A stretch of 64,000 nucleotides of DNA. Origin: Escherichia phage vB_EcoM_G2248. Both the position numbers and the translations under genes were made by a program. The first letter of the stretch is position 1. Each line of letters starts with the position of its first letter. Of the stretch, positions 24,094 to 45,306 are shown in pieces. The notes beneath the pieces are model-generated. The model saw only the letters and a list, made by a program, of their open reading frames with translations, made no database searches and had not been told where the DNA came from. The DNA lies in the sequence record MK327932.1. The stretch is one strand, 5' to 3'.

Positions 24094-24126
24094 TTTAAAC
24101 CTCCCATATAACAGAAAACGGGGCTA

Positions 24127-24158
24127 GTATAAAACTAGTCCCCGTTTGAGTCAACCAT
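24127..24158 (-). terminator. Hairpin terminator (minus strand)
   Basis: AACGGGGCTAGT...ACTAGTCCCCGTT inverted repeat with a T-run on the minus strand. Confidence 0.55.
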
Positions 24159-24171
24159 TATTTCTTAAAAA

Positions 24172-26223
24172 TTACATTTTAAATTTATCTGGCATTGCGT
24201 CTACAGATACCAGATCAGCGATAAGCTGACGTAGAGTTGCCTTATCTGCTTTCTTACGTTCGGTTTTAGCTTCGCTAATGAAGCTGGAGAAAGACAGGTC
24301 AGAAGCAGGTTTAACAACACCTTCACGGATGAATGCATCACCGTCCGCGATCATCTCGCCAGATTCTTGTAATGCTGCCAGTTCATTTTTGTTCATAATA
24401 TGTGCCTCAATGTAATAAGTTTCTTGTGAATCCGTCGATGCCGTAGCACGAGTTACCGTATCAAAGGATAACACAACACCGCGAGGAAGTAAAATCTCGC
24501 ATTCTTTGTAAGCAAATGCTTTGTTACCTACTGGCAAGACAGGGATGTTTTCCGCGCCAGCAATGGAGAAAGCAACATTAGCGCCACCTTCACCGCGAGA
24601 GCCAGCCATAGAATCAACACCAGCAACGGCACTAGCCACGTTTGCATTCCAGCCGCCAAAAATGTTAGGTGCAAGGGAAGTGCTCACATAGTTTTTAAAG
24701 TAAAACGCTTTTTGCTTACGTGCAGTTTCCCACATTTGCGACCGGAAGTCCATACCACGATACAGAATAGTACCCGGATCAAGTTTAACGCCATAGTTGG
24801 AGAAGGCATTATCCAGTGCATCGCACATCTTGACCAATTCTTCTGGATCTGAGATGCCTTCAAACTCTTCCAGCTTACGATCAGTTAGGAAGTTGTTCAT
24901 ATTGATGTATGCTGCATCGGCATATTCGCTCAACACAAAACCTTCCGCGCCTGGCAGATCAAGATCAATATCTGCCATCATTTCACCCATGTTACTAGCA
25001 ATTGCTTCAAACATACCGGAAGCAACATTACGCAGGGCATCGGTTTTAATCTGGGTGATATGACTACGCAGCATTTCAGCTTTTACATCTGCTGGCATAG
25101 ACTGGTCTACTCGATCCATTGCCAGGGCGGTGATCTTGTTTTCGAATACTTCCTCGCTCATGATTTCTTTTAAGCGTTTGATTGATGCTGCGATAACTTC
25201 CGCAGACAACGGATCATATTGATCCTGAACTTTTACCAGTTCGCTTACTGCGTATTTTGCATCGGCTTCGCTTTCAAAAATAGTACGCATGAAACCATAG
25301 CGAGTGATAATATCACTTGTCCAGTCATTCAGAGAACGGGCGGTTGAACGTTCTAAGGCTTGACGATCAATCAGAGTATTAAACTGTTTCTTAGGTTCGG
25401 CTTCGGTGATATCTTCTTCCGGTTTAAGATTAATTTTTTCTGGATGATTCACATAGTCGCTGTTATAGGTCGCTTGAGTTTTCAGCATTTCTTCTTTAGT
25501 CAAACGAGATTTAGCCGCTACGCGTTGTTCCGCTTCCGCGTTTCGTTCTTCTTCTGACACCAGACTAGCCGCATACGCCTCATCTTTAGTCAGAGATTCA
25601 CCAGTAGCCTTAGATACCCAGCGATCACCTAAATCACTTTCTACTTTAGTGAACAAGGAATCATCAAGTTTAATCCCTTTAATCTTATCAATCGCCATAC
25701 CGCGACGCTTGACAACAACTAAAGCGATCTTTTTGCTGGTCATTACTTCCTGCTGGAATACTTCAAACTTCGGTGTACGACGCACCAAACGCTCTATAAC
25801 GCGCTTAACCAGTTCGGTCTTACCTTTCATGCGGGATACGTTAAAACGGAACATAACAGCGTCTAATTGCGCTTTACGGGCTGTTTCCATAACCACATCA
25901 AAAGCACTTGCCATAACTGCAATCGGGTTATCGCCTAGACCATTTTTAAGCTGTACAATACGACCGCTTTTGTTCATTTCGCACAGTACAACATGTGCGG
26001 TCTTGTCACCCATACGAATGATTTTAGGTGTTTTGTTGGTGAAGTTACAAAGACGGACAATCACATCTTTATCGCGTGTCTGTACTGCAAAAAGCTGTTT
26101 AGGATTCTGCTTAGGCTTTAAGCACTGTACCGGAGCAATACTGCCAAAGTTTTCTTCCTCTTCCGTCAACAGCCATTTCTCGAAAGATTCAATCATTAGA
26201 TCGTCGATTTCTAAGTTAAACAT
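24172..26223 (-). CDS. alt: Alt ADP-ribosyltransferase (packaged, modifies host RNA polymerase in T4)
   Basis: 683 aa (T4 Alt is 682 aa); position after gene 54; ART-like C-terminal motifs. Confidence 0.8.
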   Translation of the reverse strand: MFNLEIDDLMIESFEKWLLTEEEENFGSIAPVQCLKPKQNPKQLFAVQTRDKDVIVRLCNFTNKTPKIIRMGDKTAHVVLCEMNKSGRIVQLKNGLGDNPIAVMASAFDVVMETARKAQLDAVMFRFNVSRMKGKTELVKRVIERLVRRTPKFEVFQQEVMTSKKIALVVVKRRGMAIDKIKGIKLDDSLFTKVESDLGDRWVSKATGESLTKDEAYAASLVSEEERNAEAEQRVAAKSRLTKEEMLKTQATYNSDYVNHPEKINLKPEEDITEAEPKKQFNTLIDRQALERSTARSLNDWTSDIITRYGFMRTIFESEADAKYAVSELVKVQDQYDPLSAEVIAASIKRLKEIMSEEVFENKITALAMDRVDQSMPADVKAEMLRSHITQIKTDALRNVASGMFEAIASNMGEMMADIDLDLPGAEGFVLSEYADAAYINMNNFLTDRKLEEFEGISDPEELVKMCDALDNAFSNYGVKLDPGTILYRGMDFRSQMWETARKQKAFYFKNYVSTSLAPNIFGGWNANVASAVAGVDSMAGSRGEGGANVAFSIAGAENIPVLPVGNKAFAYKECEILLPRGVVLSFDTVTRATASTDSQETYYIEAHIMNKNELAALQESGEMIADGDAFIREGVVKPASDLSFSSFISEAKTERKKADKATLRQLIADLVSVDAMPDKFKM

Positions 26224-26503: not shown

Positions 26504-26570
26504 TTGATACTCCTTAGTAGTTCGTTTCGGTATGGGTGTATTATGATATACACCCTCTGTTATGTCAACA
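26504..26570 (-). promoter_or_regulatory. PeSL-like early promoter cassette
   Basis: Minus strand reads TTGACA, 17-nt spacer, CATAAT, then ACCGAAACGA leader and RBS before the ATG. Confidence 0.6.
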
Positions 26571-26573
26571 ACT

Positions 26574-26754
26574 TTTAGAACATTTTTGAAATTAATTCTG
26601 CTTTGATTTCGCAGAGAACATCTAAAGATTTCTCGTCACCCGCTTTTGCTGCTTCTGCTTGCATTTTTGAAATGGCTTCAATCTCAGTGCAATTATAAGC
26701 CGCTTGAACTTTAGCGATTGCGATGATTGCCGATTCGATGGTTAAGTGTTTCAT
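26574..26754 (-). CDS. Small hypothetical early protein (~59 aa)
   Basis: ORF below the track cut-off, preceded by a PeSL cassette and GGAGAATCAAACATG start context. Confidence 0.4.
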
Positions 26755-26816
26755 GTTTGATTCTCCTTTCGTTTCGGTATGTGTGCATTATAGGGGATCG
26801 GTGACCCCCTGTCAAC
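26755..26816 (-). promoter_or_regulatory. PeSL-like early promoter cassette
   Basis: Minus strand: TTGACA, GGGGGTCACCGATCCCC (palindromic 17-nt spacer), TATAAT, leader, GGAGAATCAAACATG. Confidence 0.65.
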
Positions 26817-26822
26817 AACTTT

Positions 26823-27341
26823 TTAGTTATTTTTTAATTGTTCATCTTGCAATAATGCAATCACATGCTGGCGATGTTCTTCCGATTGAGGCACACCGAA
26901 AAAGTTTGTTTTGTAGAAATACTCTAATCGGTCTTCTCGTGTGCTCTCTTCCATCATGATCGCGGGTAGTCCGAGATTTCGGAAACGTCGCTTTTCTGCT
27001 GGCGTAAAATCACTGTAATACAACATAGAATCATCATTACCAGCAATGCTAAACTCATCATTCATGAAGGAGAATATTGCGTTTAAACGCTGTTTACCGT
27101 CCACGATTTCGATCTCATAGCGAGAGCCATCATCAATCTTAGCCATTGCGATAGCACCAACCGGAAAATCATTAATCAGGTTTTCGATAAACATACGTTT
27201 GTTTTCGGTGTCCCATACCAAAGGACGCTGATAATCTGGGTTCATGTTGATATATCCATCTTCTAACCACGCCTCATAAACAGAGATGACAAAGTTTTTA
27301 GTATTGGTATAGTAACGGCGTTTAGGCGTTAAACGGTTCAT
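26823..27341 (-). CDS. DUF262 / ParB-like (GmrSD N-terminal-type) domain protein
   Basis: Motifs DYQRPLVW and VDGKQRLNAI match the ParB/Srx-fold DUF262 signature ((Y/F)QR...W, DG.QR); ATG at 27341 with AGGAGA RBS, TAA-ATG coupling to the upstream gene. Confidence 0.55.
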   Translation of the reverse strand: MNRLTPKRRYYTNTKNFVISVYEAWLEDGYINMNPDYQRPLVWDTENKRMFIENLINDFPVGAIAMAKIDDGSRYEIEIVDGKQRLNAIFSFMNDEFSIAGNDDSMLYYSDFTPAEKRRFRNLGLPAIMMEESTREDRLEYFYKTNFFGVPQSEEHRQHVIALLQDEQLKNN

Positions 27342-27342
27342 G

Positions 27343-27675
27343 TTATAGTCTCCTGAATGGATCATCACGTAAATCAATATCTTTTAAGAACTCATCCCAT
27401 GAATGGCGGATATTGTTCTTAATTCTCCAGATAAGCGCAGGGATTGAACGCTCTCCCATCTGGAAGTATGGATCATATGATCCGTATGCCCAATATGCTA
27501 CTACAATTCCACAATCAGCGCAATAGTATTCTATTTCACTTGCTGGCGACCAAAGTCCATCAATATGATCGGTGATCTTGCTTTCGATGTTATGGCTATG
27601 ACAATCAGGGCAACGGATGCAATGACCTTGTTTATCGTAATTTGACGTTAGCGAATACTTAAACAATCTCATCAT
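27343..27675 (-). CDS. Zinc-finger protein (110 aa)
   Basis: CIRCPDCHSH ... CADCG: two CxxC pairs. Confidence 0.45.
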   Translation of the reverse strand: MMRLFKYSLTSNYDKQGHCIRCPDCHSHNIESKITDHIDGLWSPASEIEYYCADCGIVVAYWAYGSYDPYFQMGERSIPALIWRIKNNIRHSWDEFLKDIDLRDDPFRRL

Positions 27676-28388
27676 AGATCCTTATTTGCTTCAAATACTG
27701 CCTTTGCGAATCCTCGCGGGGTAAGTGACCTGATAGTCTTTGTTTTCGTTCCTTTCCCGCCTAGCTTAGAATGCTGTTTACTGTACCCTTTATTAATCTG
27801 CAAAGGTTTCTTTTCTGGCATTATAAAGCCTTGTCCGGTCCATAAGCAAGTCTTTTTCGGGTACATATCACGGGCGGCAATATACTCAGGAAAAGTAGGA
27901 TGTTTATCATCTTCCGGCAAATAACCGCCATATTCCCACGGATGGAACATATAATCAGGCTTACGCCACATGCTAGAGATAACGCTTACAGGATTCTCTA
28001 TCATGTAGGGAACTCCTAGCCATTCACCCAAATAAGCGGTTATTTTAGCTGCCCTTACATCATGAACTTGAATCAATGGTCCTTGCTCTCGTTTCTTTCG
28101 TTCAAAGTGTGCAGCGCCACTAACAGCTAAATTGGTGCACGGTGGGAATGCAAAGATAATATCCGGTTTCCCCCATTCAAGGTCCATTGCTCTTTCCAGC
28201 CAGTTCAAATCAATCCATGTGTTTACATAGGTAATGTTTGGATGTTCAAATCGGGTATTATACTTTTTGTATGTACCGTGGTCGCCATCGTCAGCATTAA
28301 AGCAGATCACCTTATGACCTGCTTTAGCCCATTCTAACCCCATTATCCCCGATCCGTCAAAGTTGCAGAATATTAATTTTTGTTTCAC
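27672..28388 (-). CDS. C5-cytosine DNA methyltransferase-like protein (238 aa, compact)
   Basis: Motif I-like FCNFDGSGIMG (F.G.G), motif IV-like FAFPPCTNLAVSG (PC...S.G) and motif VI-like MIENP (ENV-type), with spacing resembling C5-MTase catalytic cores; lacks an obvious target-recognition domain. Confidence 0.45.
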   Translation of the reverse strand: MKQKLIFCNFDGSGIMGLEWAKAGHKVICFNADDGDHGTYKKYNTRFEHPNITYVNTWIDLNWLERAMDLEWGKPDIIFAFPPCTNLAVSGAAHFERKKREQGPLIQVHDVRAAKITAYLGEWLGVPYMIENPVSVISSMWRKPDYMFHPWEYGGYLPEDDKHPTFPEYIAARDMYPKKTCLWTGQGFIMPEKKPLQINKGYSKQHSKLGGKGTKTKTIRSLTPRGFAKAVFEANKDL

Positions 28389-28636
28389 GCTGCCCCCATT
28401 GGTTTGATAGTAACAGAATCTAAAAGACCTTTGTTAGCCAGTTCGCGGCAAGTTTTCAGATCCGCAACTTCCCAGCCAGCCGCAATCAGGTTGTCAATGA
28501 GGCTGTTAGCAACTTCTTCGCTCATGAAAGAGCACTGTTTGCCGATGGTGTAGCGTACACGCTGTAATTTCAGTTTACGGAAGCCTTTAACGTTCAGGTC
28601 TTTAGCGATTTTCTTTGCGGTTTCGATGTTAGCCAT
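28385..28636 (-). CDS. Small hypothetical protein (83 aa), first gene of the operon
   Basis: ORF directly after a PeSL promoter; ATGA overlap with the MTase-like gene. Confidence 0.45.
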   Translation of the reverse strand: MANIETAKKIAKDLNVKGFRKLKLQRVRYTIGKQCSFMSEEVANSLIDNLIAAGWEVADLKTCRELANKGLLDSVTIKPMGAA

Positions 28637-28706
28637 TGTTTGATTCTCCTAAGTGGTATCTCGTCTTGATGGTTGCATTGTAGGGGAGTTATCCTCCCCT
28701 GTCAAC
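28637..28706 (-). promoter_or_regulatory. PeSL-like early promoter cassette
   Basis: Minus strand: TTGACA, GGGGAGGATAACTCCCC palindromic spacer, TACAAT, leader, RBS. Confidence 0.6.
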
Positions 28707-28721
28707 ACTTTTTATAAAATT

Positions 28722-28886
28722 ATTTGTTAATTTCTGGTGCGTTGCTAGGATAGTAACCTTCTTTAACTCCGAGGTATTTCGCAACCATCCCTACAATCTT
28801 CTGTGCTACTACAATGTCAAATTTCAGATAATCTTCGCCGTGGGTTTCAATGATATATGCTTCACATGCTGCTTTAGTCTCGAACA
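28722..28886 (-). CDS. Small hypothetical protein (~55 aa), duplicated gene copy 1
   Basis: MFETKAACEAY...; near-identical at nucleotide level to the copy at 32000..32167, including flanks. Confidence 0.45.
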
Positions 28887-28887
28887 T

Positions 28888-28950
28888 TTTGATTCTCCTA
28901 TTTCGTTTCGGTATGTGTGTAGTATAGGGGATCTCCCGATCCCCGTCAAC
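28888..28950 (-). promoter_or_regulatory. PeSL-like early promoter cassette
   Basis: Minus strand: TTGACG, GGGATCGGGAGATCCCC palindromic spacer, TATACT, leader, RBS. Confidence 0.55.
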
Positions 28951-28963
28951 AACTTTTTTAAAA

Positions 28964-29245
28964 TTATTCGTGATTAGTTTCGATGTTGTGCATTTTGCAC
29001 CAGTTCAGCCAATCACCCAGATCCTGATAGTTAATGCTTTTATCTGCTGCCATCGTTTTTGTCTTGATACCCATATGTGCGTTATGAGTAAGCATTTTTA
29101 CAGTGAACTCGATTTTATCGCCTTTAGCTTTAACATCAACCAGTTTGGTCCACTGGCTACCAGCGCCGCGAATGTTCATGCCAACGATGTTTCCGATGTA
29201 TGCTTCTTTGTTTTTCATGATTTCGGTTGCTTTGATGAATTTCAT
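28964..29245 (-). CDS. Small hypothetical early protein (93 aa)
   Basis: ORF with PeSL cassette upstream. Confidence 0.45.
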   Translation of the reverse strand: MKFIKATEIMKNKEAYIGNIVGMNIRGAGSQWTKLVDVKAKGDKIEFTVKMLTHNAHMGIKTKTMAADKSINYQDLGDWLNWCKMHNIETNHE

Positions 29246-29309
29246 TTTTGATTCTCCAATTCGTTTCGGTATGGGTGTATTATGCTATGTTCTTACTTTG
29301 GTGTCAACA
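29246..29309 (-). promoter_or_regulatory. PeSL-like early promoter cassette
   Basis: Minus strand: TTGACA ... CATAAT, leader, GGAGAATCAAAAATG. Confidence 0.55.
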
Positions 29310-29314
29310 ACTTT

Positions 29315-29584
29315 TTAGATATTTTCAGAAATAAATTTTAAAACTTGACGTAAATGTTTCTCATCTTTGATAGTCGCCGGAAGTTCTTCTTTTACTTCTT
29401 GTGCAAGATAGATATTTCCGTTCCAAGTGAAAGATCCGTCTTCGTTTACGCGATAGCTGAACATCCACTCGCAATCATTTTCGATTTCATATACACACAG
29501 AAGGGTGTAATCGTTAAAGCTATTGATTTCAAGGTCGAAGCCGTGACGTTTTGCAAAGTTGGTAGTGGTTTTAGTCAGTACCAT
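29315..29584 (-). CDS. Small hypothetical early protein (89 aa)
   Basis: ORF with PeSL cassette upstream. Confidence 0.45.
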   Translation of the reverse strand: MVLTKTTTNFAKRHGFDLEINSFNDYTLLCVYEIENDCEWMFSYRVNEDGSFTWNGNIYLAQEVKEELPATIKDEKHLRQVLKFISENI

Positions 29585-29654
29585 TGTTTGATTCTCCTAA
29601 GTGGTATCTCGTTTCGATGGTTGTATTATGCTATACACAGGATCTGGTGTCAAT
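29585..29654 (-). promoter_or_regulatory. PeSL-like early promoter cassette
   Basis: Minus strand TTGACA ... CATAAT-like; followed upstream by a terminator hairpin (29686..29703). Confidence 0.55.
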
Positions 29655-29710
29655 ACCTTTTTTAAAAATTTTGGCAATAAAAAAGCCGACACTAAGGTCG
29701 GCTAATAAAA

Positions 29711-30019
29711 TCAACGAGATAGATAATCGTTTTGCGCGATCTGGTCGGCGTATGCTGGTGTTACGTCAATCGCCAGCACTTTAACGCGTGCTTTCTTGCG
29801 ACCTGGGTTTTCTCGTAACCAGTGCTCATGACCGTGAACATTTTTATACTGCGATGCTTCTTCGAAGGTACGGATCGGACCTGGGTAATCAGCGTAAAGG
29901 ATCTCTAGATCTTCGGTGATGTAAAAATATACATCGTAATTGCTGTTCTCTAGCTTAAGCAGAGACTTTCGGAACATTGGGAGATTTTCGCGGGTAAATT
30001 CAAAGATATTATCTTTCAT
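29711..30019 (-). CDS. H-x-H-W family small protein, paralog A (102 aa)
   Basis: YFYITEDLEILY ... HGHEHW ... VKVLAIDVT shared with six other ORFs in the block. Confidence 0.5.
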   Translation of the reverse strand: MKDNIFEFTRENLPMFRKSLLKLENSNYDVYFYITEDLEILYADYPGPIRTFEEASQYKNVHGHEHWLRENPGRKKARVKVLAIDVTPAYADQIAQNDYLSR

Positions 30020-30075
30020 AGTATTATCCTCAATAGTTGGATGAAAAGGGGGGGGGGGGCTTAATGCCCCGTATA

Positions 30076-30363
30076 TTAAAACAGTCCTTCCTGTACACCG
30101 TAGTAGAGTTCATCGCTGATAATTTCATTAATGCGACGGTGTGCATATTCCTGATTTGCGAAGTTGTCAGCAAGTTCTACTTTAGTTTCGCCGTCATGAG
30201 TCCATTTAGTGATAACTTTACCATCTGCAAATTTGAAGTTGAACTCTTTAGCTACCGCATCGCGTACCAGACGTGCAAACTTATTGTTGCGGATTGCATT
30301 GTCGGTTTCGTGTGCAGCGTGAGCGAATTTGTTAACTTTCAGAGTGATAGTAATGTATGCCAT
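30076..30363 (-). CDS. Small hypothetical protein (95 aa), paralog of the 33627..33938 ORF
   Basis: Shares the segment VR.A.AKEFN.K with the ORF at 33627..33938. Confidence 0.45.
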   Translation of the reverse strand: MAYITITLKVNKFAHAAHETDNAIRNNKFARLVRDAVAKEFNFKFADGKVITKWTHDGETKVELADNFANQEYAHRRINEIISDELYYGVQEGLF

Positions 30364-30439
30364 AATTTGATTCTCCTAGTTAGAAAGTGTATCTCGTTTC
30401 GATGGGGATATTATGCTATATCCCCGATCCGGTGTCAAC
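30364..30439 (-). promoter_or_regulatory. PeSL-like early promoter cassette
   Basis: Minus strand: TTGACA, CCGGATCGGGGATATAG spacer, CATAAT. Confidence 0.55.
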
Positions 30440-30444
30440 ACTTT

Positions 30445-30723
30445 TTATAAAATAATTTTTTGATATTTTTCTATGATGTTCGTGTAAGTCACATCAACCG
30501 CTAGCACCGTTGCTTCGAATCCACCGTTTAGCCAATGGCTATGATCATGATCGTGAAAGAAACCTAGACCAGTACGAAGACCTTCTTTATATTCTGCGCG
30601 TACATTCAGTTTGTCGTCGATAAACAGATAAAACCATGAATTTTTACTAGGATTGATGATACAACCTTTCAGATTAGGGAGAATATCACGACTAAGAATA
30701 AACTTATCACCTACTTTGAACAT
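30445..30723 (-). CDS. H-x-H-W family small protein, paralog B
   Basis: WFYLFIDDKLNV ... HDHDHSHW ... VLAVDVT; start taken at MFKVGDKF. Confidence 0.5.
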   Translation of the reverse strand: MFKVGDKFILSRDILPNLKGCIINPSKNSWFYLFIDDKLNVRAEYKEGLRTGLGFFHDHDHSHWLNGGFEATVLAVDVTYTNIIEKYQKIIL

Positions 30724-30737
30724 AATATTTTCCTCAC

Positions 30738-31046
30738 TTATAAAGTTTGACCGTTGTTTTTCGCGTAATGCTGAATGCGTGCTTGATCTGCTTCCGCTGG
30801 TGATAGATTCCATGCGATCACTACAACTTCTGGCGCATCATGATCATTATCACTTACCCAATGATTATGATTCATACAATTGTTTGCTATCGCGTGAGCA
30901 AATGATCTCATTACCGGAGACGTATAATCATAGTAACGGATTTTCAGATTTTCATCAACGTACAAGTAGATCGTATACGGCTTATATTCAGTAACCAGTA
31001 ACAGACAGTTACGCAATTCTGGGAAAATCTTTTTAGTTAATTTCAT
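30738..31046 (-). CDS. H-x-H-W family small protein, paralog C
   Basis: YLYVDENLKIRY ... NHNHW ... VVVIAW; start at MKLTKKIF with GAGGA RBS. Confidence 0.5.
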   Translation of the reverse strand: MKLTKKIFPELRNCLLLVTEYKPYTIYLYVDENLKIRYYDYTSPVMRSFAHAIANNCMNHNHWVSDNDHDAPEVVVIAWNLSPAEADQARIQHYAKNNGQTL

Positions 31047-31047
31047 T

Positions 31048-31278
31048 TTATAATCCTCGGTCGCGGCTATAGTACACGGTACGCCATACAATTTCATGTT
31101 TCGTGTCGCTCCAGCACACGATCTCATTTACTCTTAAATCTTTGTTATCAACAAAAGATGAACATTGTGACGCTTCTTTCATCATTTTATCTGCTGTTTT
31201 CTCATCAAATACAGCACAGATTTCTTTATACACTCGATAATCTTTGAATTGACTCTGGATACCCATAATTAACACCAC
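31048..31278 (-). CDS. Small Cys-containing protein (76 aa), paralog pair member 1
   Basis: FKDY.VYKEI..VF.E..A.KMM.EAS.C.SF shared with the next ORF. Confidence 0.45.
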   Translation of the reverse strand: MVLIMGIQSQFKDYRVYKEICAVFDEKTADKMMKEASQCSSFVDNKDLRVNEIVCWSDTKHEIVWRTVYYSRDRGL

Positions 31279-31478
31279 TCAAGAGTTTTTGAAAACACAT
31301 CTATCCATTGTTGAGTATATGCGGTTTCTTTCCATGAGACAATACCAGTAGAATAATGGTTTTTGTTTCCAGAAAAGGACGGGCATTTTGATGCATCTTC
31401 CATCATCTTTTCGGCGAACTCTGGTTCGTATACTCGCAAGATCTGTTGATATGCTTTATAATCTTTAAATTTGCTCAT
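31269..31478 (-). CDS. Small Cys-containing protein (69 aa), paralog pair member 2
   Basis: SKFKDYKAYQQILRVYEPEFAEKMMEDASKCPSF paralogous to the preceding ORF. Confidence 0.45.
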   Translation of the reverse strand: MSKFKDYKAYQQILRVYEPEFAEKMMEDASKCPSFSGNKNHYSTGIVSWKETAYTQQWIDVFSKTLEWC

Positions 31479-31743
31479 AATCGTTAACTACCTTATCAGC
31501 TTCTTTTATTGTTTTTACATCAACTGCGATAACCCGTAAAGGTTCGTCATGGTTCCACCAATGATCGTGAATATCGGCTTGTGATTTATCACCAAAGGAA
31601 TCACGAATATCATTTTTACATTTATAGCTAATGTGACCGTCATAGTCAACATAAAGGTAATTATCGAAAATCGGCGTTTTTAAGATCATACCGAAAAATC
31701 TTTCTTTGTGTGTCTTATCCAGCGTTGCAGTAATTCGCATCAT
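31465..31743 (-). CDS. H-x-H-W family small protein, paralog D
   Basis: YLYVDYDGHISY ... IHDHWW ... VIAVDV. Confidence 0.5.
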   Translation of the reverse strand: MMRITATLDKTHKERFFGMILKTPIFDNYLYVDYDGHISYKCKNDIRDSFGDKSQADIHDHWWNHDEPLRVIAVDVKTIKEADKVVNDYEQI

Positions 31744-31755
31744 AATATATTCCTC

Positions 31756-31935
31756 TTAGAAAGGGATGGTCATTTCTTGAGCTTGTACATTCTCGTTAGG
31801 ATTAAACTTCATCCAACCGATATTGTCTACCAGCATATGTACATTTTTATCATATCCTACTTGAGTAGTCAACACTAAATGTGCTTTACCTTCAACGATG
31901 ATTTCCATGTACTTCTGAACTTCGATAGCTTTCAT
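31756..31935 (-). CDS. Small hypothetical early protein (~59 aa)
   Basis: ORF below the track cut-off, preceded by a PeSL cassette and GGAGAATCAAAATG context. Confidence 0.35.
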   Translation of the reverse strand: MKAIEVQKYMEIIVEGKAHLVLTTQVGYDKNVHMLVDNIGWMKFNPNENVQAQEMTIPF

Positions 31936-31997
31936 TTTGATTCTCCGTTTGTTGTCTTGATGGGAGTATCTTACTACTCCCTTTAATCATTGTCAAC
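31936..31997 (-). promoter_or_regulatory. PeSL-like early promoter cassette
   Basis: Minus strand: TTGACA ... GGGAGTAGTAAGATACTCCC palindrome ... leader. Confidence 0.5.
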
Positions 31998-31999
31998 GA

Positions 32000-32167
32000 T
32001 TATTTGTTAATTTCCGGTGCGTTGCTTGGATAGTAGCCTTCTTTAACACCCAGATATTTTGCAACCATTCCGGTGATCTTCTGTGCTACTACGATATCGA
32101 ATTTCAGGTAGTCTTCACCGTGGTTTGCTACAATGTATGCTTCGCATTCTGCTTTAGTCTGGAACAT
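32000..32167 (-). CDS. Small hypothetical protein (~55 aa), duplicated gene copy 2
   Basis: MFQTKAECEAY...; near-identical to 28722..28886; the ORF-track start at 32203 runs into the promoter, so the internal ATG with GGAGAATCAAAAATG context is used. Confidence 0.45.
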   Translation of the reverse strand: MFQTKAECEAYIVANHGEDYLKFDIVVAQKITGMVAKYLGVKEGYYPSNAPEINK

Positions 32168-32232
32168 TTTTGATTCTCCTATATCTCGTTGGTATGTGTG
32201 CATTATAGGGGATCTCCCGATCCCCTGTCAAC
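32168..32232 (-). promoter_or_regulatory. PeSL-like early promoter cassette
   Basis: Minus strand: TTGACA, GGGGATCGGGAGATCCCC palindromic spacer, TATAAT. Confidence 0.6.
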
Positions 32233-32240
32233 AACTTTTT

Positions 32241-32576
32241 TTATTCTTTATACGCATATTTCATAAATTTGTCTGCTACTTCATCGGCATGTTCCGATTC
32301 TACGCCGGATTCGAGAACAATAGCAAGGTCGGTTTCGTCGTGACCTTCGTACCAGTGATTATGTGTGTCGTTTGAATCAATATAGAATTTATCACCTTCG
32401 TAAGTTCGAGCAAATACATCTAAATTCTCGTCGATGTAAAAGATCCAATCTTCATAAAGAATAACCGTATTAGCCAGATTTTTATTGCCTTCAACGAAAG
32501 GTTCGACTACAAACAAATTAGTATTTTCCTCAAAATTATACAGCTTCGTAAACTTCCCAATGTTCAGCGCCAACAC
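32241..32576 (-). CDS. H-x-H-W family small protein, paralog E (start uncertain)
   Basis: WIFYIDENLDVF ... THNHWY ... LAIVLESG; the N-terminus overlaps the next ORF so the true start may be internal. Confidence 0.45.
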   Translation of the reverse strand: MLALNIGKFTKLYNFEENTNLFVVEPFVEGNKNLANTVILYEDWIFYIDENLDVFARTYEGDKFYIDSNDTHNHWYEGHDETDLAIVLESGVESEHADEVADKFMKYAYKE

Positions 32577-32727
32577 GCTTAACGAAAAGGTTTTCTTTGA
32601 TGTTATTCATAAACGTCTGGATGGATTTAATGCGGTTGGAAGGTTTCCAGTCTTTGTTGGCATTGCGGCGATACATAATAATATTACCAGTTCGCTTATA
32701 TTCAGCAACCATTTTAAGACCACACAT
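32536..32727 (-). CDS. Small hypothetical early protein (63 aa)
   Basis: ORF directly downstream of a PeSL cassette. Confidence 0.4.
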   Translation of the reverse strand: MCGLKMVAEYKRTGNIIMYRRNANKDWKPSNRIKSIQTFMNNIKENLFVKRVGAEHWEVYEAV

Positions 32728-32783
32728 AATATTATCCTCAATTTGTGGGAGAGTATTACCCTCCCGATTATTGTTATACTACA

Positions 32784-33086
32784 TTACGCAAAATGGCGTG
32801 TCAATGCTTCTTTTGCTGTTCCGCTAAGATTCTCGATCTCTCCTGGCATAACATCAACCGCCAGAACTTCTACAACATCCTCTGATCCTAACCAGTGAGT
32901 ATGACCTTTGTAGAACTTGATATCCCATTTATCGCTATCGCTAGCCCACCACACATCACCGTCTATAAAGTTGATGTAAAGCACACTACGACACATTGAA
33001 TTAGTTACTTTCAATACTGCGCCTTTCATCTCTTCCACGGTATGGTCTTCCATTTTGAAGACCTCGCCTACCTTAACTTTTGCCAT
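32784..33086 (-). CDS. H-x-H-W family small protein, paralog F
   Basis: LYINFIDGDVWW ... KGHTHW ... VEVLAVDVMP; start at MAKVKVGEV. Confidence 0.5.
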   Translation of the reverse strand: MAKVKVGEVFKMEDHTVEEMKGAVLKVTNSMCRSVLYINFIDGDVWWASDSDKWDIKFYKGHTHWLGSEDVVEVLAVDVMPGEIENLSGTAKEALTRHFA

Positions 33087-33087
33087 G

Positions 33088-33354
33088 TTACATGCTCCGA
33101 ATATGTTTAGATGCATCTTCCAGTTCGTCGATAGTGACACTGTGAGCCAGTAAGTGTACTGGTTGTGGTTCTTCACCTTCCATAGTATTGATCAGATGAC
33201 CGTTTCCTGGGTGGAATGTATCGTTGCCGTTCCAAATAGCATACACATCATCTTCTGTTACGTAGATAATAAGTCCAATCGGTGATTCTGGTAATTGAAA
33301 AATTTTACCCACTGCATCTTTGCGATTGTTTACGATATCTTTTACTGTCTTCAT
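33088..33354 (-). CDS. Divergent H-x-H-family-like small protein, paralog G (88 aa)
   Basis: IIYVTEDDVYAIW ... HPGNGH ... VHLLAHSV follows the family layout with weaker motif conservation. Confidence 0.4.
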   Translation of the reverse strand: MKTVKDIVNNRKDAVGKIFQLPESPIGLIIYVTEDDVYAIWNGNDTFHPGNGHLINTMEGEEPQPVHLLAHSVTIDELEDASKHIRSM

Positions 33355-33373
33355 TTAGTTACCTCTCGTTAAA

Positions 33374-33553
33374 TTACATCACAATCACGCCAGCCGTTGA
33401 AAGTTGATGTTTCAACTGAGCATTTTCTGCTACTGTCAAATCAATGATTTCTTGTGACGCTGCAATCATATAGCCATTGGTGATATTGTTTTGCATCAGT
33501 TCAATGGTTTCTTCGTTGTAGCGGATTTTAGCGATGATTTCGTTGAAGTTCAT
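33374..33553 (-). CDS. Small hypothetical early protein (~59 aa)
   Basis: Start taken at MNFNEII directly after a PeSL cassette. Confidence 0.4.
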   Translation of the reverse strand: MNFNEIIAKIRYNEETIELMQNNITNGYMIAASQEIIDLTVAENAQLKHQLSTAGVIVM

Positions 33554-33618
33554 GTTTGATTCTCCTAGTTCGTTTCGGTATGTGTGTATTATAGGGGAGT
33601 TTAACCTCACCTGTCAAC
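33554..33618 (-). promoter_or_regulatory. PeSL-like early promoter cassette
   Basis: Minus strand: TTGACA ... TATAAT, leader ACCGAAACGA, GGAGAATCAAACATG. Confidence 0.6.
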
Positions 33619-33626
33619 AACTTTTT

Positions 33627-33938
33627 TTAAAGTTTTTCCATGATAACGGTCATAATTACATCTTCTGCGCGAGCGGTCAGATTATCAGCGTCAGTATGTG
33701 GGCGGTTGGTTGTTACAGAGATAACACCGTTGCGCACTGGTTTGATATTGATATCAAGATGATCCGCGAAACGTTCGCCAGTTACAGAATGAATTTTGGT
33801 GTTAAATTCTTTTGCCAGTGCCTTGCGAACTTCACGAATCAGGATAGCGTTTTTCAGTTGGTTCTCCGCGCTCATGGTCTTCTGGGTGTTCATGGTTCCG
33901 TCGAAGTCAATCATTGGCAGCGTTACGATGTATTTCAT
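33627..33938 (-). CDS. Small hypothetical protein (~103 aa), paralog of 30076..30363
   Basis: Start at MKYIVTL after a PeSL cassette; shares VRKALAKEFNTK with the 30076 ORF. Confidence 0.45.
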   Translation of the reverse strand: MKYIVTLPMIDFDGTMNTQKTMSAENQLKNAILIREVRKALAKEFNTKIHSVTGERFADHLDINIKPVRNGVISVTTNRPHTDADNLTARAEDVIMTVIMEKL

Positions 33939-34052
33939 TTTTGATTCTCCGTTTAAGAAAGTGTGTTTCGTTTTGATGTGTGTAGTATAGGGGATACGTG
34001 ATCCCCTTCGTTTTGATGTGTGTAGTATAGGGGATACGTGATCCCCTGTCAA
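33939..34052 (-). promoter_or_regulatory. PeSL-like early promoter cassette containing a perfect 40-bp tandem duplication
   Basis: The unit TCGTTTTGATGTGTGTAGTATAGGGGATACGTGATCCCCT occurs twice in direct tandem (33968..34007 and 34008..34047), duplicating the -10 region and stem-loop; -35 TTGACA lies just beyond. Confidence 0.6.
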
Positions 34053-34065
34053 CAACTTTTTTGAA

Positions 34066-34410
34066 TTATTTTTTCATGAGCTTAATGGCTTCTTCCATAG
34101 CCAGCACATTTCGATAGTTAGGGTATCGTGTTAGATCGTCATACATTCGCTTAAGGGTGGAAACTTCCTCAAACTCTGGGTTTTCTAGATATAGTTGAAC
34201 AAATTGTTTCTCTACCATCTCGGCTTTTAGCTTGTCTGCTTGTTCCTGTTCATATGATTTCGTTGGACCCAACACCAACAAAATGATAAAGGTGATCAAC
34301 GGGCTAATGATCAATGATAGGATAACATAACCGATAACGCTACGGTTTAAACGGCTTGCGTACATGCCTACCAGGAAAACAAAAAGGATATAGATAAACA
34401 GAAAGAACAT
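34066..34410 (-). CDS. Small membrane protein (114 aa)
   Basis: Two strongly hydrophobic N-terminal segments (FFLFIYILFVFLVGM, VILSLIISPLITFIILLVLG). Confidence 0.5.
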   Translation of the reverse strand: MFFLFIYILFVFLVGMYASRLNRSVIGYVILSLIISPLITFIILLVLGPTKSYEQEQADKLKAEMVEKQFVQLYLENPEFEEVSTLKRMYDDLTRYPNYRNVLAMEEAIKLMKK

Positions 34411-41797: not shown

Positions 41798-42196
41798 TTA
41801 ACTTTCCAGAATATCGCGAGCTTCGTTACGCTCCTTGATGATTTTCAGGACAAATTCCAGTTTTTCTTTGTTCAGTGTTCCGTTTTCCATTGCTTCTTTG
41901 ACGGTAAACACTCCGCCACCTTGCCCGTATACAGTGACAGTGATTTCACCTAACATCGTGGTGTGAAAACCGCCAATTTTCGGTGATTCGAAAGAAACAA
42001 TTACCTCGCGGACAGTATTACCGTCGTTGATTTCTGAGAGGGTAATGTCGTTTTTGTAGGCGGTTGCTTTAACCATACGGATCAGCATAGTCTGATCTGG
42101 GGAGATGGTCATTTTGTCCATTGCATGTTGCAATGCAGCGTAACCGAAAACTTTAACGAAGTCCAGAACGTCTTTGCGAGTTTGAAATTTAATCAT
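41798..42196 (-). CDS. Hypothetical protein (132 aa)
   Basis: ORF with a PeSL cassette upstream and a hairpin downstream. Confidence 0.45.
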   Translation of the reverse strand: MIKFQTRKDVLDFVKVFGYAALQHAMDKMTISPDQTMLIRMVKATAYKNDITLSEINDGNTVREVIVSFESPKIGGFHTTMLGEITVTVYGQGGGVFTVKEAMENGTLNKEKLEFVLKIIKERNEARDILES

Positions 42197-42258
42197 CTTG
42201 ATACTCCTTAGTTGTTTTGGTATGGGAGTATCTTACTACTCCCGTGATATGCTGTCAA
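42197..42258 (-). promoter_or_regulatory. PeSL-like early promoter cassette
   Basis: Minus strand: TTGACA ... GGGAGTAGTAAGATACTCCC ... leader. Confidence 0.5.
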
Positions 42259-42266
42259 CTGCTTTT

Positions 42267-42416
42267 TTATGCAACCGCAAACATCAACATTTGAACATTC
42301 TTGGCTGTCTGGCTTTCAAAGTTCTGACATTCTTTGATAATGTCCTCTACTTTCTCGCCGGAGATCTCCGCGTAAGTTTCGATTGCCATTTTCAGTACCG
42401 CGTCAAAGTTGTTCAT
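42267..42416 (-). CDS. Small hypothetical early protein (~49 aa)
   Basis: Start at MNNFDAV after a PeSL cassette. Confidence 0.35.
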   Translation of the reverse strand: MNNFDAVLKMAIETYAEISGEKVEDIIKECQNFESQTAKNVQMLMFAVA

Positions 42417-42484
42417 TTGATTCTCCTTAAAGTGTATTTCGTTTCGATGGGGGTATATTACTACCCCCCGTTTCATGCTGTCAA
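42417..42484 (-). promoter_or_regulatory. PeSL-like early promoter cassette
   Basis: Minus strand: TTGACA ... GGGGGGTAGTAATATACCCCC palindrome ... leader. Confidence 0.5.
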
Positions 42485-42703
42485 CTACTTTTTAATGACA
42501 AGTTCGAATTTTGCTACCTTGCGTCCTCGTTTATTGAAAGCAACCCACGGACGATTTTCAATGTAGAACAATTCTTCGCCAATAATGAATACTGGCTGAT
42601 TGTAAAGGCGACCCATCAGGTCACGCTGGCGAATGGTAGTAGATTCGTATACTTCGCCTACTACAAAGTGCTTGCTGATAGAGTCGGTGCAAGTAAATTT
42701 CAT
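42485..42703 (-). CDS. Small hypothetical early protein (72 aa)
   Basis: ORF between two PeSL cassettes. Confidence 0.45.
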   Translation of the reverse strand: MKFTCTDSISKHFVVGEVYESTTIRQRDLMGRLYNQPVFIIGEELFYIENRPWVAFNKRGRKVAKFELVIKK

Positions 42704-42765
42704 TTTGATTCTCCTTTGTTTCGTTTCGATGGGGGTATATTACTACCCCCGTTATTCAGTGTCAA
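42704..42765 (-). promoter_or_regulatory. PeSL-like early promoter cassette
   Basis: Near-duplicate of the cassette at 42417..42484. Confidence 0.5.
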
Positions 42766-42772
42766 CTACTTT

Positions 42773-42991
42773 TTACTTGTTGTATTCATTCCACCATTGG
42801 GTTAGCTTATCAATTATTTTTGTGTTTCTATCCAACTTATCCCACCGTTTTCGAGGGTTTATCAACCGTAATAGGTAAGGTGTACTTGTTAAGTGAACTC
42901 GGTCAATGTAGTGATTGATGTACTGTTTTTCGATTCTAAGTTTCATCTTTTTACGATGAAAATATGCAATGACTTGTTCTTCTGTTTCCAT
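42773..42991 (-). CDS. Small hypothetical early protein (~72 aa)
   Basis: Start at METEEQ after a PeSL cassette; basic, helical. Confidence 0.4.
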   Translation of the reverse strand: METEEQVIAYFHRKKMKLRIEKQYINHYIDRVHLTSTPYLLRLINPRKRWDKLDRNTKIIDKLTQWWNEYNK

Positions 42992-43089
42992 ATGTTCCTC
43001 CGTTTCGATGTGCATTATGCTATACCCCGATCCGATTGTCAACACCCAATAACAAAAAAGTCGCCACGATGGGCGACTTTGAACAAACA

Positions 43090-45081: not shown

Positions 45082-45246
45082 TCCGACAACCTCAAAACAT
45101 TTATCATCAGGAAGAATCGCCCATTCTACGCCATATTCATCCTCAACGTAGTAGCAAGCCCCATCATGTCGAGCATCATATACATCACCGACAACAAAGC
45201 TATCAGCTAGCTCAAAATCTACAGCAACACATTTTAATTTGGTCAT
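45079..45246 (-). CDS. Small hypothetical early protein (~56 aa)
   Basis: Start at MTKLKCVAVDF after a PeSL cassette. Confidence 0.35.
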   Translation of the reverse strand: MTKLKCVAVDFELADSFVVGDVYDARHDGACYYVEDEYGVEWAILPDDKCFEVVG

Positions 45247-45306
45247 AATAAAATCCTCACTTGTTTTTGATGGTTGTATTATAGCGGGGATTTCTCCCCG
45301 CGTCAA
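45247..45306 (-). promoter_or_regulatory. PeSL-like early promoter cassette
   Basis: Minus strand: TTGACG, CGGGGAGAAATCCCCGC palindromic spacer, TATAAT. Confidence 0.55.

What the first reader, a model, noticed from the sequence alone, without database searches (positions are those of the whole stretch)
26504..34052. Repeated early-promoter stem-loop cassettes, including one duplicated cassette-plus-gene unit
At least a dozen ~65-bp elements in this block share, on the minus strand, a -35 TTGACA, a GC-rich palindromic 17-nt spacer (e.g. GGGGATCGGGAGATCCCC), a TATAAT-like -10, an ACCGAAACGA leader, and GGAGAATCAAA before the ATG. Further copies occur at 8290, 42197-43045, 45247, 50096 and 50479. 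These match the promoter-early stem-loop (PeSL) cassettes described as recombination modules in T4-type hyperplastic regions. The unit 28722-28950 (small gene plus cassette) is repeated almost identically at 32000-32232, which indicates recent cassette-mediated duplication or exchange.
Basis: partly seen in the sequence, partly recalled or inferred. Interest (0 to 1): 0.5.

Follow-up and report, generated by a model that had tools for sequence, protein, structure and literature searches.

The report
Known promoter/stem-loop cassettes of RB49-like phage
The repeats are the already-described "PeSL" early-promoter/hairpin cassettes of RB49-like (Krischvirus) T4-type coliphages, in the same variable region where they were first defined and tested, so the finding is correct but ordinary; the "recent duplication" is an old, conserved pair of paralogous genes.

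Summary
The window is a Krischvirus (RB49-like) genome, about 95% identical to phage vB_EcoM_G2494. Positions 26504-34052 are the alt-to-gene-30 hyperplastic region, homologous to ORF185-ORF212 of RB49/phi1. Twelve minus-strand cassettes are present. Each has an A/T tract, TTGACA, a 17-18 nt spacer, a TATAAT-like box, a CAT(AC)CGAAACGA leader and GGAGAATCAAA before the ATG. The motif GGAGAATCAAA occurs 12 times on the minus strand and never on the plus strand. Nine of the twelve have a real 7-8 bp hairpin. These are the PeSLs of Arbiol et al. 2010. That paper tested promoter, terminator and mini-circle activity on cassettes orthologous to those here. In 14 relatives, five natural deletion types have chimeric-cassette junctions, with the crossover in the stretch from just after the -10 box through the shared leader. 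The duplicated gene-plus-cassette unit is real, but the gene copies are only 84% identical in DNA. Both copies sit at the same positions in 11 of the 14 relatives examined. Orthologs are 94-100% identical and paralogs 83-90%, so the duplication is old. Minor extras unique to this genome are a perfect 40-bp tandem duplication inside one cassette and a C12 run. Verdict: already known.

The parts
26504..26590 (-). PeSL 1 (ORF186|ORF185 junction): A/T tract, TTGACA-17-CATAAT, 8-bp hairpin GGGTGTAT/ATACACCC spanning the -10 box, ACCGAAACGA leader, GGAGTATCAAATG
   Evidence: (z -2.3); crossover partner in the ORF186 deletions of pEJ01, JK32 and MIZ5
26755..26837 (-). PeSL 2 (ORF187|ORF186): TTGACA-17-TATAAT with spacer hairpin GGGGGTC-ACC-GATCCCC
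   Evidence: (z -2.8)
28637..28727 (-). PeSL 3 (ORF191|ORF190): TTGACA-17-TACAAT with spacer hairpin GGGGAG-GATAA-CTCCCC
   Evidence: (z -4.1); downstream parent of the chimeric junction in Brandy/JK32
28720..28887 (-). 55-aa gene, homolog of RB49/phi1 ORF191 (phrog_8009); paralog A of the 'duplicated unit'
28888..28971 (-). PeSL 4 (ORF193|ORF191): TTGACG-17-TATACT with spacer hairpin GGGGATC-GGGA-GATCCCC; the site where ORF192 (RB49, G2494) or another gene (JSE) is inserted in relatives
29246..29329 (-). PeSL 5 (ORF194|ORF193): TTGACA-17-CATAAT; no hairpin (promoter, leader and SD only)
   Evidence: (z +0.3)
29585..29710 (-). PeSL 6 (ORF197|ORF194): TTGACA-17-CATAAT with only a weak hairpin, preceded by a separate canonical terminator hairpin with T-run at 29703-29684; insertion site of ORF195/196 in RB49, MIZ5, Brandy, JK32 and KMB43
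30364..30460 (-). PeSL 7 (ORF199|ORF198): TTGACA-17-CATAAT, 8-bp hairpin GGGGATAT/ATATCCCC spanning the -10 box
   Evidence: (z -3.0); left edge of the ORF199-201 replacement in JSE/KMB43
31936..32010 (-). PeSL 8 (ORF205|ORF204): TTGACA-17-TAAGAT, hairpin GGGAGTA/TACTCCC spanning the -10 box
   Evidence: (z -4.7)
32000..32167 (-). 55-aa gene, homolog of RB49/phi1 ORF205 (phrog_8009); paralog B of the 'duplicated unit'
32168..32253 (-). PeSL 9 (ORF206|ORF205): TTGACA-18-TATAAT with spacer hairpin GGGGATC-GGGA-GATCCCC; ortholog of the PeSL206/205 whose promoter activity was measured (about 13,000 Miller units)
   Evidence: z -3.2; G5211 deletion junction
32728..32810 (-). PeSL 10 (ORF208|ORF207): TTGACA-17-TAGTAT with the -35 box inside the 3' end of ORF208; hairpin GGGAGGGT/ACTCTCCC lies downstream of the -10 box; different leader and SD (GAGGATAA)
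   Evidence: (z -2.5)
33553..33639 (-). PeSL 11 (ORF210|ORF209): TTGACA-18-TATAAT; degenerate spacer hairpin GGTGAG-GTTAAA-CTCCCC (intact GGGGAG in relatives)
   Evidence: (z -0.6)
33939..34074 (-). PeSL 12 (ORF211|ORF210): TTGACA-17-TATACT with spacer hairpin GGGGAT-CACGT-ATCCCC. This hairpin is identical to that of RB49 PeSL211/210, which was shown to terminate transcription. In this genome only, the cassette contains a perfect 40-bp tandem duplication (33967-34006 and 34007-34046) of hairpin, -10 box and leader.
   Evidence: family D3; z -5.3
42195..43060 (-). Four further cassettes of the same family in a second variable block (-35 boxes at 42258, 42484, 42765 and 43042); three have hairpins over the -10 box and the one at 43042 is weak
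45246..45328 (-). Cassette with spacer hairpin GCGGGGA-GAAA-TCCCCGC, TTGACG-17-TATAAT
   Evidence: (z -4.6)
24100..24175 (-).
50096..50552 (-). Two sigma70-consensus promoters (-35 boxes at 50152 and 50535) with the related leader CATCGAAACAA but no embedded hairpin; the one at 50535 is preceded by a separate terminator-like hairpin (50542-50597, repeat family D10)
8277..8350 (-). Sigma70-consensus promoter (TTGACA-16-TATAAT) directly after a T-run and hairpin end; lacks the family leader and SD, so only a loose relative

Best explanation
The block is the alt-to-DNA-ligase hyperplastic region of an RB49-like (Krischvirus) T4-type coliphage. Its repeats are PeSLs (promoter-early stem-loops).

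Each cassette sits between two small genes of unknown function and is a self-contained expression unit. It comprises an A/T-rich UP-like tract, a near-consensus host sigma70 promoter, a conserved transcribed leader and a strong Shine-Dalgarno sequence.

In most cassettes a G-run/C-run hairpin lies in the spacer, over the -10 box or beside it. When that hairpin is transcribed from an upstream promoter it attenuates or terminates read-through, which insulates each gene.

The cassettes share about 65-100 bp in direct orientation. The phage's efficient homologous recombination therefore crosses over between them. This deletes the intervening genes (as mini-circles), re-inserts them or swaps them, always at gene boundaries and always leaving a working chimeric promoter.

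Shown here: the architecture, strand bias, hairpins, orthology to the published elements, and chimeric-cassette deletion junctions in natural isolates.

Taken from the literature on orthologous cassettes: promoter strength, terminator activity, early timing and mini-circles.

Inferred: that the same activities hold in this particular genome.
For: Identity of the genome and locus. The block is 92-97% identical to 58 or more Krischvirus genomes. It is collinear with RB49/phi1 ORF185-ORF212 between alt and gene 30.

Architecture. There are 12 cassettes, all on the minus strand and all in intergenic gaps. All 13 TTGAC-containing sites that score at least 10 of 12 on the sigma70 consensus lie on the minus strand, and 12 of those are the cassettes. 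The motif and strand statistics are, and the consensus is.

Hairpins. Nine of the twelve cassettes fold into 7-8 bp stems. Five of the nine were matched by 0-1 of 200 shuffles, and the other four by 2, 3, 8 and 11 of 200. Stem sequences differ between cassettes on both sides while pairing is kept: GGGGATC/GATCCCC, GGGGAG/CTCCCC, GGGTGTAT/ATACACCC, GGGGATAT/ATATCCCC and GGGAGTA/TACTCCC.

Published definition and tests on orthologs. The paper describes five hairpin-position subclasses. PeSL206/205 showed promoter activity. The PeSL211/210 hairpin terminated about as well as rrnB T1. ORF192 and ORF210 mini-circles had crossovers between the -10 box and the ATG, or in the hairpin loop. The window's PeSL12 hairpin is identical to that of RB49. 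The RB49 early-promoter consensus, with T or C at -12, agrees with 5'-end mapping of early transcripts.

Recombination in nature. There are five deletion types: ORF186 in pEJ01 and JK32; ORF186-191 in MIZ5; ORF191 in Brandy and JK32; ORF210/211 in Brandy and JK32; ORF206-211 in G5211. In each, the junction is a chimeric cassette. The upstream half comes from one PeSL and the downstream leader, SD and gene from another. The switch falls in the stretch from just after the -10 box through the shared leader. Eleven of 20 structural breakpoints lie within 15 nt of a cassette, against 3.3 expected (P about 1e-4).
Against: No expression or 5'/3'-end data exist for this genome.

The embedded hairpins lack the T-run of canonical intrinsic terminators. 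The terminator scan picked up only 29703-29684 among the hairpins in cassette gaps on the coding strand.

Three of the 12 cassettes have no hairpin or a degenerate one.

Breakpoints are not significantly more frequent at PeSL gene junctions (9 of 12) than at gene junctions without a PeSL (7 of 13; Fisher P = 0.25). The comparative data here therefore do not show that PeSLs are preferred over any viable gene boundary.

Several indels (28372-28387, 33086/33352, 31264) lie at gene junctions without a cassette. The one at 28372-28387 shows a 16-nt alignment overlap at its junction.
Confidence: 0.92

Rival explanations
1. The cassettes are just strong early promoters with an optimised leader and SD. 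Their similarity reflects selection for expression (convergence on the sigma70, UP and SD consensus). They have no special role in recombination, and indels simply occur at any gene boundary.
For: Breakpoints are about as common at gene junctions without a cassette (7 of 13) as at those with one (9 of 12). Non-cassette indels exist at gene junctions without a cassette, one with a 16-nt alignment overlap at its junction.
Against: Conservation extends beyond the functional consensus. It covers GTTGTTGACA, ACAC(A/C)CAT(AC)CGAAACGA and GGAGAATCAAA, which are identical across unrelated genes. All five deletion junctions examined are chimeric cassettes that switch parent in the stretch from just after the -10 box through the shared leader. 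Hairpin-loop and -10 alleles reassort among orthologous cassettes. Mini-circles with such junctions have been published.
Confidence: 0.05
2. The hairpins are targets of a dedicated structure- or sequence-specific protein, in an integron-attC-like or cruciform-cutting recombination pathway, or a GATC/Dam-sensitive switch. On this view cassette shuffling is site-specific rather than plain homologous recombination.
For: Arbiol et al. themselves speculate about a GGGG...CCCC-binding protein, and they localise one RB49 mini-circle crossover to the hairpin loop. Loop alleles ACC and GGT are exact reverse complements and alternate at the same orthologous cassette in near-identical contexts, for example Brandy versus JK32. 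GATC is 5-fold enriched in spacers, mostly at spacer position 4, in both hairpin classes. An HNH endonuclease gene (34418-34891) borders the region.
Against: The five natural junctions examined cross over downstream of the hairpin, between the -10 box and the shared leader, and not in it. No integrase or recombinase family was found among the proteins scanned. GATC is lost in several orthologous alleles, such as GGGGGTC and TAAGGTC. The cassettes are related by descent, so the enrichment statistic is inflated.
Confidence: 0.03

Closest known systems
PeSLs (promoter-early stem-loops) of coliphages RB49 and phi1 (Arbiol, Comeau, Kutateladze, Adamia & Krisch 2010, Genome Biol Evol 2:140; PMC2839356)
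   Same: Same genus, same hyperplastic region (alt-gene 30, ORF185-212) and the same cassette at each orthologous gene junction. They share near-perfect TTGACA-N17-TATAAT, the AT tract, G-run/C-run hairpins in the same positional subclasses, and the SD plus ATG. The PeSL211/210 hairpin is identical. The deletion junctions are of the same kind.
   Different: Only allelic detail differs. ORF192, ORF189.1 and ORF195/196 are absent, and ORF211 and an 88-aa gene (33088-33354) are present. Loop alleles differ. One cassette carries a 40-bp tandem duplication that none of the listed database genomes shows, where each spans a single 41-nt copy.
PeSL/PmSL elements of T4/PST and KVP40/nt-1 (Comeau, Arbiol & Krisch 2014; PMC4122927)
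   Same: They are composite promoter-plus-hairpin cassettes that flank variable small ORFs in hyperplastic regions and are associated with indels. 'Degraded' or slipped copies are reported there too.
   Different: Promoter consensus differs (TTTACW or TTGYVH -35 boxes), and so does hairpin consensus (AGNA..TCNT or A3-4G3..C3T3-4). In PST the hairpin lies upstream of the promoter. These elements are analogs, not homologs.
Integron gene cassettes (attC hairpin sites)
   Same: Small promoter-dependent ORF cassettes delimited by hairpin-forming repeats. Circular excised intermediates are known. Arbiol et al. draw this comparison.
   Different: No integrase is present and there is no attI. Each cassette carries its own promoter. 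Natural crossovers map to linear sequence homology in the leader, not to a folded site.
Morons and Botstein 'linker' sequences of lambdoid phages
   Same: Autonomously expressed accessory genes with their own promoter and terminator, and conserved linkers that target exchange to gene boundaries.
   Different: Morons lack conserved flanking repeats and are thought to move by illegitimate recombination. Here the regulatory cassette itself supplies the homology.

Membership tests
PeSL (RB49/phi1 type) | Near-consensus sigma70 promoter (TTGACA, N17, TATAAT) oriented towards the downstream ORF | tested here: met
   All 12 in-block cassettes score 10-12 of 12 on the consensus, with 17-18 nt spacers, and all are on the coding (minus) strand. 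-10 variants with C or T at -12 match the published RB49 consensus.
PeSL (RB49/phi1 type) | AT-rich tract upstream of the -35 box that contains or follows the stop codon of the upstream gene | tested here: met
   An AAAAAAGTTG-type tract is present in the alignment, and stop codons lie 5-25 nt upstream of the -35 box.
PeSL (RB49/phi1 type) | Stable G-run/C-run stem-loop in one of five positions relative to the promoter | tested here: met
   Nine of the 12 cassettes have 7-8 bp hairpins: five in the spacer, three over the -10 box and one downstream. Cassette 29653 has a separate upstream terminator. Cassette 29307 has none and 33617 is degenerate.
PeSL (RB49/phi1 type) | Shine-Dalgarno sequence and start codon of the downstream ORF at the 3' end | tested here: met
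   GGAGAATCAAA followed by 0-4 nt and then ATG is present in 10 cassettes exactly and in one with one mismatch. Cassette 32804 uses GAGGATAA.
PeSL (RB49/phi1 type) | Located in a hyperplastic region of a T4-type phage, upstream of small ORFs of unknown function | tested here: met
   Krischvirus, alt-gene 30 region. The ORFs hit only 'unknown function' PHROGs or nothing.
PeSL (RB49/phi1 type) | Association with insertion, deletion or replacement breakpoints between close relatives, with chimeric cassettes at junctions | tested here: met
   Five deletion types have chimeric-cassette junctions. Eleven of 20 breakpoints lie within 15 nt of a cassette. Caveat: there is no significant excess over cassette-free gene junctions (Fisher P = 0.25).
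PeSL (RB49/phi1 type) | Promoter active early in infection; hairpin attenuates or terminates upstream transcription | not testable with these tools
   Published for orthologs: PeSL206/205 for promoter activity and the PeSL211/210 hairpin for termination. RB49 early 5' ends have been mapped. No data exist for this genome.
PeSL (RB49/phi1 type) | Formation of excised mini-circles by recombination between neighbouring cassettes | not testable with these tools
   Shown by inverse PCR for the ORF192 and ORF210 regions of RB49/phi1.
Canonical intrinsic (Rho-independent) terminator | GC-rich hairpin immediately followed by a run of T/U | tested here: not met
   None of the embedded hairpins was called on the coding strand. 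Among the hairpins in the cassette gaps, only the separate hairpin at 29703-29684 qualifies; the only other strong minus-strand call, 26284-26270, lies outside the block. After the spacer hairpins comes TATAAT or TATACT.
Integron attC cassette array | Tyrosine-recombinase integrase plus attI, and attC sites with conserved R/L boxes | tested here: not met
   No integrase or recombinase domain was found in the proteins scanned. Crossovers map to the stretch from just after the -10 box through the shared leader.
Curated RNA families (Rfam) | Match to a covariance model at the gathering score | tested here: not met
   Only two sub-threshold chance hits were found in 25500-35500.

The most novel reading that the evidence does not exclude
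The cassette hairpins may be more than passive homology patches. They may extrude as cruciforms or hairpins that flip in place: loop alleles ACC and GGT are exact reverse complements and alternate at the same orthologous cassette. They also carry a Dam site (GATC) at a fixed spacer register. On this reading, promoter activity or recombination at PeSLs would be structure- or methylation-dependent and possibly targeted by a phage protein. The unique 40-bp tandem duplication would then be a footprint of such hairpin-initiated template switching.
Probability: 0.08. Interest if true: 0.5.

Novelty: already known. Interest (0 to 1): 0.12.

Why it matters
It matters little as a discovery, because the elements, their locus and their proposed role were published in 2010 for the same phage genus. 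The comparison with 14 newer genomes does add independent natural examples of cassette-by-cassette deletions with chimeric junctions, which supports the published model. It also shows that indels at cassette-free gene junctions are almost as common, a caveat that the two-genome study could not see. For annotation, the cassettes give reliable gene starts and transcription-unit boundaries for about 20 small ORFs.

Tried and rejected
1. Rfam scan of 25500-35500 at E up to 1 gave only two sub-threshold chance hits, so no known RNA family explains the leader or the hairpins.

2. The terminator consensus scan does not call the embedded hairpins as intrinsic terminators. Terminator function therefore rests on the published reporter assay, not on the sequence.

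3. Recent duplication of ORF191/ORF205 is rejected on ortholog versus paralog identities across 12 genomes.

4. I tested whether breakpoints prefer PeSL junctions over other gene junctions. The result was not significant with this sample.

5. I considered a formal covariation count on the cassette alignment. I abandoned it because the hairpins sit in at least three different registers relative to the promoter, so a single consensus structure cannot be written on alignment A1. I used per-sequence folding with shuffles instead.

6. Pfam and PHROGs scans of the flanked ORFs found no recombinase and almost no functions.

7. I did not use the large protein or metagenome searches, because the identification was already unambiguous.

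Full report
**What the window is.** A megablast of 26504-34052 against 50,697 phage records hits 63 records. All of the substantial hits are Krischvirus (RB49-like, Straboviridae) coliphages at 92-97% identity, and the best is vB_EcoM_G2494 (99% coverage, 95.1% identity). Annotated neighbours show that the block lies between the Alt ADP-ribosyltransferase gene and an HNH gene followed by DNA ligase (gene 30). It is collinear with ORF185-ORF212 of RB49 and phi1.

**Checking the observation.** Reading the minus strand, a pattern scan, my own enumeration and the consensus promoter scan all agree on twelve cassettes in the block. Their -35 boxes start at 26568, 26815, 28705, 28949, 29307, 29653, 30438, 31996, 32231, 32804, 33617 and 34052.
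- All twelve lie in gaps between small minus-strand ORFs.
- TTGACA-N15-19-TANNNT occurs 28 times in the window against 5.6 expected, and 27 of these are on the minus strand.
- GGAGAATCAAA occurs 12 times on the minus strand and never on the plus strand.
- A 16-sequence alignment gives the consensus AAAAAAGTTGTTGACA-N17/18-TATAAT-ACACCCATCGAAACGA...GGAGAATCAAA-ATG.

So the repeated cassette is real and far beyond chance.

**Where the description is too uniform.**
- Folding each cassette with 200 shuffles shows clear 7-8 bp hairpins in nine of the twelve.
- Five hairpins lie in the spacer (26815, 28705, 28949, 32231, 34052). Three lie across the -10 hexamer (26568, 30438, 31996). One lies downstream of the -10 box (32804).
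- Cassette 29307 has none. Cassette 29653 has only a weak one but is preceded by a canonical terminator at 29703-29684. Cassette 33617 is degenerate in this genome, though intact in relatives.
- The outside copies at 42258, 42484, 42765 and 45306 have strong hairpins. Those at 43042, 50152, 50535 and 8320 do not.

**What it is.** These are the PeSLs (promoter-early stem-loops) described by Arbiol et al. 2010 in RB49 and phi1.
- The paper defines them as an AT-rich tract, a consensus sigma70 promoter, a G-run/C-run hairpin in one of five positions, and an SD plus ATG. They are concentrated in hyperplastic regions upstream of ORFans.
- The paper's experiments were done on this very locus. PeSL206/205, orthologous to the window cassette at 32231, gave about 13,000 Miller units.
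- The hairpin of PeSL211/210, orthologous to the window cassette at 34052, terminated about as well as rrnB T1. That 17-nt hairpin is identical in RB49.
- Mini-circles were recovered for ORF192 and ORF210. Their crossovers fell between the -10 box and the ATG, or in the hairpin loop.
- An independent study notes that the predicted RB49 early consensus, with T or C at -12, agrees with 5'-end mapping of early transcripts. This matches the TATAAT and CATAAT classes seen here.
- A 70-nt cassette probe finds only Krischvirus-type records.

**Comparative test of the recombination role.** I fetched the homologous region from 14 relatives and chained local blastn alignments against the window. Gene content differs repeatedly.
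- ORF186 is absent in pEJ01 and JK32.
- ORF186-191 are absent in MIZ5.
- ORF191 is absent in Brandy and JK32.
- ORF192, or a different gene, is inserted at 28957-28968 in RB49, G2494 and JSE.
- ORF195/196 are inserted at 29606-29702 in five phages.
- ORF206-211 are absent in G5211.
- ORF210/211 are absent in Brandy and JK32.
- ORF211 is absent in six phages.

For the five deletion types I aligned the junction against the two parental window cassettes. In every case the junction is a chimeric cassette. The upstream gene end, AT tract, -35 box, hairpin and -10 box come from one PeSL. The leader tail, SD and gene come from the other. The switch falls in the stretch from just after the -10 box through the shared leader (CATACCGAAACGAA in three of the junctions), which is where the published ORF192 mini-circle crossovers lie.

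Eleven of 20 distinct breakpoints lie within 15 nt of a cassette, against 3.3 expected (P about 1e-4). However, gene junctions without a cassette carry breakpoints almost as often (7 of 13 versus 9 of 12; Fisher P = 0.25). The data therefore support the published mechanism but do not prove a preference over other viable gene boundaries.

**The 'duplicated unit'.** The two 55-aa genes (28720-28887 and 32000-32167) are paralogs. They are 89% identical in protein and differ at 27 of 168 nt, with 18 synonymous and 6 non-synonymous codon differences.
- Both are homologs of RB49/phi1 ORF191 and ORF205. Both are present at the same two positions in the window and in 11 of the 14 relatives.
- Orthologs are 94-100% identical, whereas paralogs are 83-90% identical in every genome.
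- The duplication therefore predates the sampled diversity of the genus, and both copies are under purifying selection. It is not recent, and the copies are not 'almost identical'.
- What is shared exactly is the 18-nt hairpin GGGGATCGGGAGATCCCC. Across relatives the cassette upstream of ORF205 carries loop GGGA (window, E26, G5211), ACC (7 genomes) or GGT (5 genomes). The -10 alleles TATAAT and TATACT reassort independently. This points to ongoing conversion or exchange between cassettes rather than to the original duplication.

**Mechanism and rivals.** The best explanation is the published one, at 0.92 confidence. Each cassette is an insulated early expression unit, and the cassettes' mutual homology lets the T4-type recombination system delete, circularise, insert and swap the flanked ORFs.
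- The embedded hairpins are not canonical terminators, because no T-run follows them. Terminator function therefore rests on the published reporter assay.
- A pure 'just promoters' view is contradicted by conservation beyond the functional consensus and by the chimeric junctions.
- A site-specific or structure-specific pathway cannot be excluded. Three hints favour it: one published loop crossover, the reverse-complement loop alleles, and GATC enrichment in spacers (9 observed versus 1.7 expected).
- Against it, the natural junctions map between the -10 box and the leader rather than in the hairpin, no recombinase was found, and the cassettes are not independent samples.

**Verdict.** The recent-duplication inference is wrong. 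The feature is already known, in this genus and at this locus. Interest is low.

Noticed in passing
window 33967-34046 (minus strand; copies 34046-34007 and 34006-33967): A perfect 40-bp tandem duplication lies inside the ORF211|ORF210 cassette. It covers the hairpin GGGGATCACGTATCCCC, the -10 box TATACT and the leader up to CGAA, but not the -35 box. All 14 aligned relatives have one copy, and each of the 25 listed database records spans a single 41-nt copy. The second copy places a hairpin in the 5' UTR of the ORF210 homolog. It could be real slippage or unequal exchange, or an assembly artefact.
   Followed up: partly
window 30048-30059: A run of 12 G on the plus strand (C12 on the coding strand) extends the 3' arm of the terminator-like hairpin between the ORF198 and ORF197 homologs. 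It is the longest homopolymer in the window. The 14 relatives have C4-C6 at this position. It may be homopolymer slippage or a sequencing error.
   Followed up: partly
window 26815 and 32231 cassettes; loci L013 12300-12390 versus L014 11810-11900; other orthologous cassettes: The spacer-hairpin loop alleles ACC and GGT are exact reverse complements (GGGGATCACCGATCCCC versus GGGGATCGGTGATCCCC). They alternate at the same orthologous cassette among close relatives. For example, Brandy and JK32 differ only by this flip in an otherwise identical chimeric cassette. This suggests hairpin inversion or frequent conversion between cassettes. Neither PeSL paper mentions it.
   Followed up: partly
window promoter spacers at 26815, 28949, 29653, 30438, 32231, 34052, 43042: GATC (the Dam site) occurs 9 times in 21 cassette spacers against 1.7 expected. 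It usually starts at spacer position 4, in both the spacer-hairpin and the -10-hairpin classes. No other 4-nt palindrome is comparably enriched. The cassettes are related by descent, so the statistic is inflated. GATC is also over-represented in the whole window (363 observed versus 233 expected from base composition).
   Followed up: partly
window 29711-30019, 30445-30723, 30738-31046, 31465-31743, 32241-32516, 32784-33095: Several of the small ORFs between cassettes form a divergent paralog family (homologs of ORF197, 199, 200, 203, 208 and possibly 206). They show 26-36% identity, and the ORF197, ORF199 and ORF200 homologs hit phrog_9345. From reading the translations, they share a C-terminal H-x-H-W ... 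V(L/I)A(V/I)D(V/L) motif. Function is unknown.
   Followed up: partly
window 31048-31478: Two adjacent small ORFs (about 71 and 69 aa) are tandem paralogs at 41% aa identity (E = 1e-15). In JSE and KMB43 the block 30459-31264, which includes one of the pair, is replaced by a different 651-bp segment.
   Followed up: no
window 28372-28387: Most relatives carry an extra 226 bp here (ORF189.1 of RB49/phi1). The window lacks it, as do JSE, E26, pEJ01 and JK32. The junction shows a 16-nt alignment overlap, which suggests deletion between short direct repeats at a gene junction with no cassette.
   Followed up: no
window 26823-28388: A three-gene cluster without internal cassettes. It comprises a GmrSD_N/DUF262-domain protein (E = 4e-20), a zinc-ribbon protein and a 238-aa protein annotated in relatives as a DNA (cytosine) methyltransferase. 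An FPPC motif is visible in the translation, but there is no Pfam hit. A 176-nt stretch of the methyltransferase gene is about 80% identical to Salmonella siphophage-like records.
   Followed up: no
There is also a series of TTGACA-N16-18-TAnnnT sites at 50535, 51615, 52387, 52935, 53435, 53977, 54534 and 54743, which may be a further early-promoter block without the family leader.
   Followed up: no
phi1 EF437941 42607-42647; JSE EU863408 44936-44976; ECD7 44332-44372; Brandy 42445-42485: In several relatives, a copy 100% identical to the 41-nt hairpin, -10 box and leader module of the ORF211|ORF210 cassette lies about 80 kb away in another part of the genome. The same cassette core is therefore shared between distant variable regions.
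   Followed up: no
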